This document shows positions 9,001 to 12,000 of a stretch of 64,000 nt of DNA, in pieces. Source of the DNA: Escherichia coli (GTDB lineage: Bacteria > Pseudomonadota > Gammaproteobacteria > Enterobacterales > Enterobacteriaceae); NCBI RefSeq assembly GCF_050920415.1, contig NZ_CP169309.1. One strand, written 5' to 3'. The position numbers were made by a program. The stretch's first letter is position 1. Each line of letters starts with the position of its first letter.

Positions 9001-12000
9001 TGGTAAGCGGTGAAATTGTCGGCATCAGTCAGATAAGGCGGATCACAGTAAACAACGTCACTCCCGCCCCGAACCAAATCGAGCGTTTCTGAATAGTGGG
9101 CAGTAATGAACGTTGCGCGTTTTGCTTTTTCAGCAAAGGCGCGGATTTCATCAGCGGGGAAATAAGGCTTTTTGTACTTACCGAACGGGACGTTGAACTG
9201 GCCTCGTCGATTGTATCGGCACAGACCATTGAAGCAGTGCCGGTTTAGGTAAAGGAAACGCGCAGCAGCTTCAACGGATTCAGAACCAAAGGATTTACCT
9301 GACTGATTGAAAGCATCACGTACCGCGTAATAGAAAATTGCGCGGCTTTCTTCACCACCTAATGAACCGGCTGTAAACAGGCTCTCCAGTTCATTCAGCA
9401 GCGCATCAGAGTGATACGCCATCGCCTTATAAAGATTAACCAGATCAGGATTCACATCTGCGATCAGATATTCATCATATTCCGTATTCATCATGACGGC
9501 GCAGGAACCTGCGAACGGTTCAACCAGGCGCTTTCCTTCCGGCAAATGGGGACGCAACTGCGGCATAAGGCGGGCTTTGCTGCCCACCCATTTAAGCGGT
9601 GTTTTTATTGCCATGCCGCGCCCCCTTTGCTGCAAATCGCTGCGGCTTCTTCGCGGATTAACTCAACGATTTCCGCTGCGCTTAGACCTTCATTGGCCGC
9701 ATGAGTGGCCAACTTATCCAGACGGGTGGAACACAGATCAGCAGCTGCGGCTTTACCTTCCTGCGTGGCTTTGGTGAGCATGGCCAGCAGGTCAGTGCCT
9801 GATTTTGTTGCGGGTAAATTCTGACGTGTCATGTGCATTTTGGTTTCCTTTAGGCAAAAGAATCCCCGGCCACTTGAACCGTGACCAAAAAATTCAGACT
9901 GTTAATTAGTGAAAAGTGGGTTGTGCTGTGGCGGCTGAATAGTTCGGTGCCGGAATCAGGTGCAACTCATAGGTTGTTCGCCACCACTCCTGGATCAGCG
10001 CTTTTATTTCGCCGACACCAAGCGCTCCAGATGTATAGAAAATCGCACGAATCCCCGCCAGCGCTTCTATCTGGGCTTCTTTGCTTTCCGCTTCGCGATA
10101 GACGCAGCACCAGAAGGCGGCATTTGTCGCCAGCCAGTGACGCGGATTCGTCATGTGCTCGGTGTCATTGAAGAAGAACGGATGCAAAGCAATACGGCCA
10201 TCTTTACTGGCGTTTTTCGCTGCAAACGCTACAGCGTAATTATGCGGTACACCCCATGCTGCCAGTTCAGCCCCTAGTGATTTACCTTCAACCGAAATGA
10301 TGGACATCAGTGATTCCCCTGTTGCTGTAGCTTCTGGACAATATGAGGCGCAATCACCATCTGCACCCCGCTGCTGCTATAAATTGGATGAACCTTCTTG
10401 ATTGGGCGGTTCGCGGTACGTTTCGAAAAATCGCTGTCACGTAAACTGCCGAAACCTTCAAACGTTAACCGCGCCCGTGAAATACCCCGGCGTAGTTGAA
10501 TCATGTCCCGATAGCCCAGACGTTCATAAAGCTCCCGCCAGCAGCATTTGCTTAAGTGGGCTTTGAATACCCCAGCCCCTGAAGTAACCGCAGCAGCATG
10601 AAGCACGACACCGCGCCACTCTGGTGTTAAGTTGTCCCACCAGTTCCCCGCATCGCTGTAGGCTGGGTTGATCTGAAGGCGCATTCTTTTGCAATGCTCC
10701 AGTCCGCGCTTTTGCTGTTCCTGGCTAATCGCCATAACGCCCCCTATAGCCCCATCAGACGACGCCACCACGGGCGGCGCGGCTGCTGGCCATTGAATTT
10801 GTACATGTGGCTAGGGTTCCAGCGCTGACCGTTCGGCAGTTCTATCCAGCCCGTTGAACCACTCGGCAGTTGCATGGCTGGTGATTCTTTTTTCAGGTAA
10901 GTAACAAACGCTTTCATGGTTCTCCCTCACATCAGGCCGGTGGCGTTGGTTGTGACCAGATCCACCGCAGCGGCCAAAACCGGCGCAGAGTGAATACGGC
11001 TTTCAACGGTATAAGCCAGCACGGATAAGCTACGGATTGCATCGCGGGCGCGATCCAGAATTTGAGTACGGCGGGCGGCGGTCATATGGCCAGTTGATAC
11101 GGCTTCCCCAGCAATTGCGCCCACACTGGCTGTGGCGCTCAGTGCGCACAGTTGCATGTTGCCTTCTGTTGCATTGTTCACCGGTACGGATGGAAGGCAG
11201 TTAATCTGCCCCAGCATCCCATCCAGTAAACGCGCATCTTCGGTGTAATCCGTGATAGCCAAAAGTTCATCACAGGTCAGGCGGTGCGGTTGCGCTGGGT
11301 TCAGTTTATTACGCAGGATCTGTGGCCTCATACCAACGGCAGCTGCCACATCTTCAAGATTGTGCTCAATTGCAAATGCTCGGCAAGCCGCATCAAAGTA
11401 CGCATGTTTAGAGGTCTGGTAATCAAACATTGTTTGCCTCTCCCTAATCCGTAGGATGGATTACGCGTTAAGCGAAATGTCACATTCGCTTAACGCCTGA
11501 ATAGTGAGCGCGGCCATGTTGACTTCGACCAGGCCTTTCTTCTGCTTACCCTTCGGCTTAATAGGTAATTTTCCGTATTCGATCAGGTTCCTGGCGGTTT
11601 CTTTGTTGGTACCAGTACGGCGGCAATACTCGTCTAAAGGCAGGTATGGTTCTGGGATGATGATTGTAATGTTCGGACGCATAAGGCAAACTCCACTAGT
11701 TTACCGATAGGGCAATATCGGTATCTATTAGTCAGTATCTAACAACGAGGCTAGGTTAATTAGACAATATCTAAATGTCAACATCACTTAGATTTAATCT
11801 AATTCCTTGATGGGGTAAATGGGAAGATTTCGAATTGATCCGGAGACAGACAGCGCTCCCGTTCTTGATAGAATCATTGAAGCTTACGGCTTTACTCAAA
11901 AGCTACAGCTTGCCGAACACCTTGATATTGCAGCTAGTTCGCTTTCGTCTCGATACAAACGAGGCGGACTACCTGCGGACATAATGGTCAAGTGCATGGC

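What the first reader, a model, noticed from the sequence alone, without database searches (positions are those of the whole stretch)
11683..11818. Lysis-lysogeny switch region with perfect operator-like palindromes
The intergenic region between the divergent apl-like and CI genes contains the perfect inverted repeat TACCGATA-N6-TATCGGTA (11702..11723) and a second palindrome TTAGATTtAATCTAA (11788..11802). These are likely binding sites for CI and/or Apl.
Basis: seen in the sequence. Interest (0 to 1): 0.25.

Follow-up and report, generated by a model that had tools for sequence, protein, structure and literature searches.

The report
186-type phage switch operator region
This is the control region of a phage-186-like prophage: one reported palindrome is one of three repressor (CI) operators over the lytic promoter, and the other is a conserved stem-loop around the first binding box of the excision/lysis regulator. 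The region is an ordinary member of a known kind, with one unexplained detail.

Summary
Both palindromes are at the stated coordinates. The region lies between a 186-type cI and a Cox/Apl-like gene followed by cII.

**TTAGATTtAATCTAA (11788-11802).** It is better read as TTAGA-N5-TCTAA. It has two more copies, at 11760-11774 and 11728-11742, placed around a conserved lytic promoter (TTGACA-17-TAACCT, minus strand). In about 60 related prophages all four half-sites of the two main operators change together with the class of the CI N-terminal domain, so these are CI operators.

**TACCGATA-N6-TATCGGTA (11702-11723).** This one behaves differently:
- The arms keep Watson-Crick symmetry through 16 sequence variants in 68 versions.
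- They vary independently of CI class, and differ between prophages whose Apl-like proteins are identical.
- The 6-nt centre (GGCAAT) is the first of three boxes about 10 bp apart. The same boxes recur beside int at att, which is the signature of Cox/Apl-type direct-repeat binding.

I read the arms as a base-paired stem, most likely an RNA hairpin in the overlap of the convergent lytic and lysogenic transcripts. Its function is unknown.

No 186-style distal operators (FL, FR, pB) were found.

Verdict: a new member of a known kind; interest is modest.

The parts
11819..12403 (+). cI repressor gene (194 aa), 186-CI type
   Evidence: PF07022 + PF16452. phmmer to the 186 CI structure 2FJR gives E 8e-38 over residues 13-189.
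11461..11682 (-). apl/cox-like gene (73 aa), first gene of the lytic operon
   Evidence: PHROG 575 'Cox-like excisionase and repressor', E 1.5e-27. No Pfam hit and no BLASTP match to 186 Apl. Identical protein in prophages that carry different operators.
10927..11430 (-). cII-like activator gene
   Evidence: PF06892, E 3.7e-46; PHROG 101.
11788..11802 (.).
   Evidence: Sits at a fixed position 28-29 bp from O2 in relatives, with a class-specific half-site.
11760..11774 (.). CI operator O2, TTAGA-caata-TCTAA, fills the spacer between -35 and -10 of the lytic promoter
11728..11742 (.). CI operator O3 (weaker), TTAGT-cagta-TCTAA, at about +4 to +18 of the lytic transcript; overlaps Cox/Apl box 3
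   Evidence: one mismatch. In most relatives only the right half-site is present here.
11776..11781 (-). -35 of the lytic promoter (pR equivalent), TTGACA
   Evidence: TTGACA in 43 of 60 relatives, TTGATT in 10.
11753..11758 (-). -10 of the lytic promoter, TAACCT, 17-bp spacer
   Evidence: The TAnnCT pattern is conserved in relatives: TAACCT 19, TAATCT 18, TAGCCT 7. The promoter scan missed it because only 9 of 12 positions match, with 3 of 6 in the -10.
11702..11723 (.).
   Evidence: As RNA it folds at -10.1 (+) or -9.6 (-) kcal/mol, z about -3.5. Distance to the apl ATG is constant at 26-28 nt; distance to the pR -35 varies from 66 to 83 nt. It is single-copy.
11709..11718 (+). Cox/Apl-type box 1, AGGGCAATAT (hexamer GGCAAT 11711-11716), in the P1 loop and the first bases of the right arm
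   Evidence: Scores 13.7 bits with a matrix built only from att-arm boxes of relatives. Only 37 of 127,982 window positions reach 10 bits. Arrays start here in many relatives.
11718..11727 (+). Cox/Apl-type box 2 (weak), hexamer GGTATC 11720-11725
   Evidence: In phase (9 and 11 bp from its neighbours) but scores -1.1 bits. Inferred from phasing only.
11729..11738 (+). Cox/Apl-type box 3, TAGTCAGTAT (hexamer GTCAGT 11731-11736)
   Evidence: 10.6 bits.
11664..11692 (+). Predicted lysogenic promoter (pL equivalent): -35 TTGTAA 11664-11669, -10 CAAACT 11687-11692, start near 11698
   Evidence: Inferred only, by alignment to the annotated 186 pL (TTGCGA-17-CATGAT). The sequence is also constrained by apl codons and the apl Shine-Dalgarno (CTCC 11691-11694).
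15357..15382 (-). Cox/Apl-type boxes in the att arm next to int: GGCAGT (15362-15357), GTGAGT (15372-15367), GTTAAT (15382-15377)
   Evidence: 11.8, 0.6 and 10.6 bits, 10 bp apart. Relatives carry the same arrays directly after int.

Best explanation
The interval is the operator-promoter region of a phage-186-type genetic switch in an E. coli prophage integrated next to mntS.

**(1) CI operators.** CI dimers bind three 15-bp operators, TTAGA-N5-TCTAA: O1 11788-11802, O2 11760-11774, and a weaker O3 11728-11742. These bracket the -35, fill the spacer and cover the start of the lytic promoter (TTGACA 11781-11776, TAACCT 11758-11753, minus strand). Binding shuts off transcription of apl-cII and the replication genes.

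**(2) Cox/Apl boxes.** The Cox/Apl-like protein binds three boxes about 10 bp apart on the + strand: GGCAAT 11711, GGTATC 11720, GTCAGT 11731. They lie between the lytic promoter and the predicted lysogenic promoter. The same kind of array lies beside int at att. This mirrors Apl of 186.

**(3) The stem.** The perfect repeat TACCGATA-N6-TATCGGTA is not a repressor operator. Its arms are a base-paired stem built around Apl box 1. The hairpin most likely forms in RNA made from the convergent promoters. On the cI-sense strand it would start about 4 nt after the predicted pL start. On the apl-sense strand it would end 7 nt before the apl ribosome-binding site. Its role, whether in RNA stability, translation or sense-antisense pairing, is not known.

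**Shown versus inferred.** Shown: sequence anatomy, conservation and covariation. Inferred: all binding, the position of pL, and that the stem acts as RNA.
For: **Gene family.**

**CI operators.**
- Three of the four window matches to TTAGA-N5-TCTAA lie in 75 bp. There are none in the other 32 kb of the prophage.
- The geometry is that of the annotated 186 operators.
- In 60 relatives, two sites 28-29 bp apart flank the conserved -35. All four half-sites share one class-specific 5-mer: TTAGA, GTAGA, TTCKC, nTCGY or TTCGA, matching the class consensus at a mean of 16-19 of 20 positions. Each 5-mer goes with one CI N-terminal-domain class.
- Half-site base 3 is predicted by CI residues 3, 8, 51 and 56 at normalised mutual information (MI) 0.90-0.95. 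The best Apl column reaches 0.25.
- Apl is 100% identical between TTAGA-type and TTCGC-type prophages.

**Lytic promoter.** Conserved as TTGACA-17-TAnnCT.

**Apl boxes.**
- The 186 att boxes read TGGCGA/AGGTAA/TGGCAA/TGGCAA/TGTCAA at 10-11 bp spacing.
- In this family, arrays of at least 3 G[GT][CT]A[AG]T boxes recur at two places only: 27-30 bp from the apl ATG, and right after int. One relative has a fourth 10-bp unit.
- A matrix built from att boxes gives 13.7 and 10.6 bits at 11709 and 11729, and 11.8 and 10.6 bits at att.

**Stem.**
- There are 68 versions and 16 inner haplotypes. Pairs 1-5 are Watson-Crick in 64-68 of 68.
- In 42 versions there are 91 double-change cells against 31.5 expected.
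- In the TTGA-nnn-loop-nnn-TCAA subgroup the inner three pairs take six different sequences and stay complementary.
- Two variants keep pairing through a bulge or a longer loop.
- Arm classes assort freely with CI classes. No CI, Apl or CII column predicts them beyond MI of about 0.6, and the best CI columns lie in the non-DNA-binding C-terminal domain.
Against: **No experiment.** Nothing here shows binding or maps a transcript end.

**CI operators.** The operators sit 17-90 bp from the cI start, so some of the CI-operator association could be linkage. The concerted change of four half-sites argues against that being the whole story.

**pL.** It is placed only by analogy. Its -10 (CAAACT) is poor and overlaps the apl Shine-Dalgarno.

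**Apl boxes.** Box 2 scores below zero. The Apl-like protein shows no detectable sequence similarity to 186 Apl, and its AlphaFold model was too poor to use (pLDDT 57.6).

**The stem as RNA.**
- The loop length is fixed at 6 nt in nearly all versions.
- The inner stem shows almost no G-U intermediates: 3 G.T and 1 A.C in 340 cells. That pattern also fits a DNA palindrome bound by an unidentified dimer.
- Mismatch types (16 G.T against 7 A.C, mostly at outer positions) and folding energies (minus strand more stable in 31 of 42) point to opposite strands.

**Apl class.** Arm class is partly associated with Apl class: GGATA arms with a CGCCAA loop go with one Apl type across three CI types.
Confidence: 0.6

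Rival explanations
1. P1 (11702-11723) is a second class of CI operator over the lysogenic promoter. The same CI would bind it for negative autoregulation, as 186 CI binds two distinct recognition sequences and contacts weak sites over pL.
For: P1 lies over the predicted pL start. 186 CI protects about 60 bp over pL through poorly defined sequences (PMC3675496). A paper title cited there states that its helix-turn-helix (HTH) binds two distinct sequences. P1 is centred 22.5 bp (about two turns) from O3.
Against: P1 arm classes are independent of CI N-terminal-domain class. TTAGA-type CI occurs with CGATA, CTGTA and GAACT arms; CTGTA arms occur with five CI classes. The best CI columns for P1 class reach only MI 0.6 and lie in the C-terminal domain, against 0.90-0.95 for the true operators. 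The inner three pairs vary freely within one subgroup.
Confidence: 0.1
2. P1 is a palindromic operator of the Apl/Cox-like protein, or of another small phage-encoded dimer. Two subunits would bind head to head at the pL start.
For: The centre of P1 is the best Cox/Apl-type box in the window. Some arm classes go with one Apl type across several CI types (GGATA/CGCCAA; GAACT). Fixed 6-nt spacing and near-absence of G-U pairs fit a protein site.
Against: A 100% identical Apl protein is found with CCGATA arms (window) and with CCTGTA arms (L002-L004). The arrays at att have no inverted arms. Recombination-directionality factors, the class that includes Apl and Cox, bind direct repeats as monomers (PMC7498355). 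The best Apl column has MI 0.62. There is no second copy of the motif in the prophage.
Confidence: 0.15
3. P1 is a binding site for a host regulator such as LexA. This would tie the switch to host physiology.
For: In the commonest class among relatives, P1 reads CCTGTAcggcaaTACAGG. That contains the LexA-box core CTGT-N8-ACAG (consensus from my own knowledge).
Against: The window copy reads CGAT-N8-ATCG and lacks the CTG/CAG triplets. At least eight other arm sequences occupy the same position. No single host factor fits them all.
Confidence: 0.05
4. The palindromes are chance features of an AT-rich intergenic region and have no function.
For: Each alone would appear in 3-6% of shuffled regions.
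Against: There is conservation with compensatory change in 68 versions. Three operator copies are clustered. The operators covary with CI class.
Confidence: 0.02

Closest known systems
Coliphage 186 lysis-lysogeny switch (CI, pR/pL, Apl, CII)
   Same: Gene order is int-cI / apl-cII. CI has the same two domains (2FJR homologue). Operators are inverted repeats of 5-6 bp half-sites with a 5-bp spacer over the lytic promoter. The excisionase/repressor boxes resemble the GGCAA-type hexamers of 186, lie about one helical turn apart, and occur both in the switch and in the att arm beside int. The CII site has identical geometry: ATGTTTA-N13-CAAACAT at the cII start.
   Different: CI is only about 44% identical, and the Apl-like protein is not detectably similar. 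Half-sites are TTAGA, not ATTCAC. Operator centres are 28 and 32 bp apart rather than two turns. No FL, FR or pB-type distal operators were found. There are three Apl-type boxes rather than seven, and they lie on the opposite strand relative to apl. The short covarying stem-loop around box 1 has no described counterpart in 186, and the covariance model finds none there.
Phage P2 / W-phi switch (C repressor, Cox, Pe/Pc)
   Same: Face-to-face early promoters, with a Cox-type dual excisionase/repressor as the first lytic gene. PHROG 575 labels the window protein Cox-like.
   Different: P2 C is an unrelated small repressor that binds direct repeats (PMC2995052 and PMC1904263, abstracts listed). 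P2 has no cII. Here the repressor is 186-type and its operators are inverted repeats.
5'-terminal or leader stem-loops, and sense/antisense hairpins of convergent transcription units
   Same: A short, stable hairpin (-10 kcal/mol) in a fixed position next to a predicted transcript start and a ribosome-binding site. The stem sequence is free to covary.
   Different: No transcript ends are mapped here. There is no Rfam family. The loop is constrained as a protein box on DNA. The function is only conjecture.

Membership tests
Phage 186-type genetic switch | Immunity repressor with the 186-CI HTH domain and the CI C-terminal oligomerisation domain | tested here: met
   PF07022 (E 7e-23) and PF16452 (E 5e-30). 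2FJR at E 8e-38 over both domains.
Phage 186-type genetic switch | Divergently placed Cox/Apl-type gene followed by cII as the start of the lytic operon | tested here: met
   PHROG 575 at E 1.5e-27 and PF06892 at E 3.7e-46. No direct similarity to 186 Apl.
Phage 186-type genetic switch | CI operators are inverted repeats (half-site, N5, half-site) covering the lytic promoter | tested here: met
   Three TTAGA-N5-TCTAA sites around TTGACA-17-TAACCT. 186 sites for comparison. Covariation with CI class. Binding itself was not tested.
Phage 186-type genetic switch | Three pR operators spaced two DNA turns apart | tested here: not met
   Centres at 11795, 11767 and 11735, giving 28 and 32 bp. Relatives show 28-29 bp. 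The 186 spacing is taken from PMC3675496.
Phage 186-type genetic switch | Distal CI operators about 300 bp either side (FL, FR) and at the late-activator promoter (pB) | tested here: not met
   The only other match, 12065-12079, has a mismatch. The same DNA is present in TTCGC-class prophages, where it encodes ELDILK. There are no matches in the other 32 kb of the prophage, ogr region included.
Phage 186-type genetic switch | Face-to-face lytic and lysogenic promoters 40-60 bp apart | tested here: inconclusive
   The lytic promoter is well conserved. The lysogenic promoter is placed only by alignment to 186 pL, giving starts about 47 bp apart. No transcript data.
Phage 186-type genetic switch | Excisionase/repressor boxes as direct repeats one helical turn apart, both between the promoters and at att | tested here: met
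   The middle box is weak at both places.
LexA (SOS) box | CTGT-N8-ACAG core | tested here: not met
   The window has CGAT-N8-ATCG. The core is present only in CTGTA-class relatives.
Intrinsic terminator | GC-rich hairpin followed by a U tract | tested here: not met
   No terminator-like site in 11400-12500. T-richness after the stem is inconsistent among relatives.
Any described RNA family (Rfam 15) | Match to a curated covariance model | tested here: not met
   No match at E up to 10 in 11300-12000.

The most novel reading that the evidence does not exclude
The covarying stem around the first Apl box would be a functional RNA element of 186-type switches that has not been described.

The two convergent transcripts each carry the hairpin, with complementary loops (CGGCAA and UUGCCG). 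Loop-loop pairing, or a protective 5' hairpin on the weak cI transcript, would add a post-transcriptional layer to the lysis-lysogeny decision.

There is a weak hint that the 186 group has a counterpart. There, a 9-bp inverted repeat encloses the central Apl boxes, with a few compensatory changes.
Probability: 0.15. Interest if true: 0.55.

Novelty: new member of a known kind. Interest (0 to 1): 0.3.

Why it matters
**The comparative set as a resource.** The related prophages amount to a natural swap experiment. The same switch scaffold carries at least six operator/CI specificity classes.
- This gives testable rules, for example CI residue 51 Leu or Phe with base 3 of the half-site A or C.
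- It also gives a panel of presumably heteroimmune, 186-type repressor-operator pairs that could serve as orthogonal parts.

**Differences from the model phage.** 186-type switches can lack the distal looping operators that are central to the 186 model.

**The open question.** The one unexplained feature is a single-copy stem-loop built around the first Apl-type box. If it acts as RNA, it would mean the well-studied convergent-promoter switch has a layer that has been overlooked.

For the window itself, the finding is ordinary prophage regulatory DNA.

Tried and rejected
- **FL-like distal operator at 12065-12079 (TTAGAcatacTCAAA).** Rejected. The same DNA occurs in prophages with TTCGC-type operators, and it simply encodes ELDILK.
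- **CI operator at an ogr/late promoter.** No match in the rest of the prophage.
- **P1 specificity set by CI, Apl or CII.** No alignment column predicts arm class beyond normalised MI of about 0.6.
- **P1 as terminator.** No consistent U tract.
- **P1 as a known RNA.** No Rfam hit.
- **P1 as a repeated motif.** The covariance model R1 finds only the switch copy in the window and in ev015, and none in 186 or the rest of the prophage.
- **Deciding the functional strand.** Wobble counts and folding energies give contradictory, weak signals.
- **Structure of the Apl-like protein.** AlphaFold gave pLDDT 57.6, so no fold search was run. There is no PDB sequence match.
- **DnaA-box and CRP-like readings of some arm classes.** Considered by eye and dropped. 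The outer positions covary away from those consensus sequences.
- **Primary 186 operator papers.** JBC 1996, JBC 2002 and Mol Microbiol 2002 could not be read. The A/B operator classes are therefore cited only through the 186 GenBank annotation and PMC3675496.
- **att site of the S.Kent phage.** The att site lay beyond another ORF that follows int, so this was not pursued.
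Full report
**Setting.** Window 6.7-15.4 kb is the regulatory end of a P2/186-like (Peduoviridae) prophage that abuts mntS and opgE of E. 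coli.
- Reading leftwards from the finding: a 73-aa Cox/Apl-like gene (11682-11461, minus strand), cII (11430-10927), fil-like and other small genes, a dam methylase, and replication gene A.
- Reading rightwards: cI (11819-12403), a KAP-type P-loop NTPase, and int (14312-15352).
- CI carries both 186-CI Pfam domains and matches the solved 186 CI structure 2FJR at E 8e-38.
- The small divergent gene belongs to PHROG 575, 'Cox-like excisionase and repressor'. It has no BLASTP similarity to 186 Apl.
- A 99.7% identical prophage sits at the same site in two E. coli genomes. Relatives at 76-84% DNA identity occur in about 25 more, and in phages ESSI2_ev015, S.Kent 1-2-1 and vB_YenM_324.

**Observation.** Both palindromes are exactly where reported.
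- By chance alone they are only mildly unusual: 2.9% and 6.2% of shuffles of the 136-bp region. The case for function therefore rests on comparison.
- I collected 80 loci from IMG/VR through CI and 80 more through the apl start plus GCAA, besides the annotated genomes. This gave 68 unique intergenic regions in the first set alone.

**Second palindrome: a CI operator, one of three.**
- The conserved unit is TTAGA-N5-TCTAA, with copies at 11788, 11760 and, with one mismatch, 11728.
- The fourth window match lies inside cI and is a coding coincidence. The other 32 kb of the prophage has none.
- The geometry is that of the annotated 186 operators FL, FR and pB, ATTCAC-N5-GTGAAT.
- O1 and O2 flank a perfect TTGACA on the minus strand. 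Seventeen bp downstream lies TAACCT. Across 60 relatives this reads TTGACA/TTGATT-17-TAnnCT. It is therefore the lytic promoter, pointing at apl, with O2 in its spacer and O3 over its start.
- In every relative, two 15-bp sites lie 28-29 bp apart at these positions, and all four half-sites share one 5-mer. That 5-mer changes with the CI N-terminal domain:

| Half-site | CI N-terminal-domain signature |
|---|---|
| TTAGA | FRIDPxTDSAP...AASSLSSRYKRGGLPADIM |
| GTAGA | ...ASSSMSARYKRGGL... |
| TTCTC/TTCGC | FKIDLNVDSTP...RGVFPADIV |
| nTCGY | FSYGQISHSS...AGRYKRGGF |
| TTCGA | FPFEQIGHSS...ARFKRGIF |

- Base 3 of the half-site is predicted by CI residues 3, 8, 51 and 56 with normalised mutual information (MI) 0.90-0.95. 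The best Apl column reaches 0.25.
- The Apl-like protein is 100% identical between the window (TTAGA) and L002-L004 (TTCGC), so these are not its sites.
- Linkage to the nearby cI start could inflate the association. It does not explain four half-sites changing in concert.

**First palindrome: not a repressor operator.** P1 is present in essentially all relatives, as arm - 6 nt - arm.
- The loop consensus is CGGCAA (CGCCAA in one group).
- The distance from the apl ATG is constant (loop start 26-28). The distance to the lytic -35 varies from 66 to 83.
- The arms differ between relatives: CCGATA, CCTGTA, (G/T)GGATA, CGTGTA, TTGAATG, TTGAACT, TTGAGCG, CTGAGTG, CCACA and others. They nevertheless stay complementary.
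- In 68 distinct versions the five inner pairs are Watson-Crick in 64-68 cases, with 2-4 pair types each and 16 haplotypes.
- On the first 42 versions, 84.8% of cells pair against 59.9% in shuffles and 30-44% with slid partners. There are 91 double-change cells against 31.5 expected.
- Arm classes assort freely with CI/operator classes.
- The identical Apl protein occurs with CCGATA arms and with CCTGTA arms.
- No column of CI, Apl or CII predicts arm class better than MI of about 0.6, and the best CI columns are in the C-terminal domain.
- In the TTGA-nnn-loop-nnn-TCAA subgroup the three pairs next to the loop take six different sequences. One variant keeps pairing through a bulge and another through a longer loop.

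This is the behaviour of a base-paired stem, not of a half-site read by a specificity-matched protein.

**The loop is a Cox/Apl-type box.**
- The 186 att boxes read TGGCGA, AGGTAA, TGGCAA, TGGCAA, TGTCAA at 10-11 bp spacing.
- In this family, arrays of three or more G[GT][CT]A[AG]T boxes at 9-11 bp spacing recur at just two places.
  - On the + strand they start 27-30 bp from the apl ATG, that is in the P1 loop. An example is CGGCAATACAGGGCAATAATGGGCAATG. One relative carries a fourth 10-bp unit.
  - On the - strand they lie directly after int.
- A weight matrix built only from att-arm boxes of relatives scores 13.7 bits at 11709 (AGGGCAATAT) and 10.6 at 11729. It scores 11.8 and 10.6 at 15362 and 15382 beside int. 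In each case there is a weak box in between. Only 37 of 127,982 window positions reach 10 bits.
- Direct repeats one turn apart, at both switch and att, are the established signature of Apl and other recombination-directionality factors (PMC7498355).

**What the stem may do.**
- As RNA it is stable on either strand: -10.1 and -9.6 kcal/mol, z about -3.5.
- By alignment to 186 pL (TTGCGA-17-CATGAT, inside the start of apl), the lysogenic promoter would be TTGTAA 11664-11669 and CAAACT 11687-11692, with its start near 11698.
  - The hairpin would then begin about 4 nt from the 5' end of the cI transcript.
  - On the other strand it would sit at about +24 to +45 of the lytic transcript and end 7 nt before the apl Shine-Dalgarno.
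- Mismatch types (16 G.T against 7 A.C) and energies (minus strand more stable in 31 of 42) disagree on the strand.
- No U tract follows consistently, no Rfam family matches, and no second copy exists.
- A DNA-level role, binding an unidentified dimer, cannot be excluded. The fixed 6-nt spacing and the scarcity of G-U pairs fit it.

**Comparison with 186.**
- Same kind: CI family, operator geometry, Apl-type boxes at switch and att, and a CII site of identical geometry (ATGTTTA-N13-CAAACAT at 11404-11430).
- Different: operator sequence, operator spacing of 28 and 32 bp rather than two turns, no FL, FR or pB operators, three boxes rather than seven and on the other strand, and the stem-loop.
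- In eight phages of the 186 group, a 9-bp inverted repeat (186: 23103-23111 and 23069-23077) encloses the central Apl boxes and shows a few compensatory changes. It is 77.5% paired against 69.4% in shuffles. That is suggestive only.

**Verdict.** This is a well-behaved new member of the 186-type switch family. Its comparative data set is a useful by-product, and one small conserved stem-loop remains unexplained. All binding and transcript claims are inferences from sequence.

Noticed in passing
window 12482-14265 (frameshift near 12691): The gene between cI and int is a KAP-family P-loop NTPase. It matches the PADLOC candidate defence family PDC-S49 (E 1e-128 for the intact 594-aa copy in E. 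coli JNE25-001). In the window it is split into two ORFs by a 1-bp deletion in an A-run. Relatives carry other cargo at this cI-int junction (a bPH_3+SHOCT protein in S.Kent 1-2-1) or none.
   Followed up: partly
window 11465-11476 / 11485-11496: A perfect 12-bp-arm inverted repeat, GCGTTAAGCGAA-N8-TTCGCTTAACGC, lies inside the last codons of the apl-like gene (ALSECDISLNA). It is conserved across the family, with a mix of compensated and uncompensated third-codon changes. It could be a hairpin between apl and cII.
   Followed up: partly
window 11404-11430: ATGTTTA-N13-CAAACAT spans the cII start codon. It has the same sequence type and spacing as the annotated CII-binding site of 186 (23435-23462). 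This implies a CII-activated establishment promoter reading through apl towards cI.
   Followed up: no
window 15387-15397 and 15406-15416: Two exact copies of GTAACTTATTG, 19 bp apart, lie just beyond the Apl-type boxes next to int. They are likely integrase arm-type sites of the att arm.
   Followed up: no
relatives, e.g. L002 1796-1817 (equivalent to window 11702-11723): In the commonest class of relatives the stem-loop reads AACCTGTAcggcaaTACAGGGT. That contains the LexA-box core CTGT-N8-ACAG and resembles the sulA box apart from the central bases. The window copy does not have this core.
   Followed up: no
L008 (phage 186) 23103-23111 and 23069-23077: The 9-bp inverted repeat GCAATTGAT / ATCAATTGC encloses the central Apl boxes of 186. 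In 8 phages of the 186 group it is 77.5% paired against 69.4% in shuffles, with 5 double changes. This is a weak sign that a stem around Apl boxes is general.
   Followed up: partly
L124 2417-2458: One relative has four rather than three GGCAAT boxes, through an exact 10-bp duplication (AATAATGGGC). That is what a helically phased protein array would tolerate.
   Followed up: no
window 11810-11821: A three-codon frame, ATG GGG TAA, overlaps the cI start (TAAATG). It is not conserved in relatives, and the GGGG probably just serves as the cI ribosome-binding site.
   Followed up: no
L089 22196-24055 (other end of the 99.7% identical prophage, outside the window): A three-gene cargo (PIN domain protein, STAS-like protein, ATP-binding protein) sits at the far prophage end next to mntR.
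   Followed up: no
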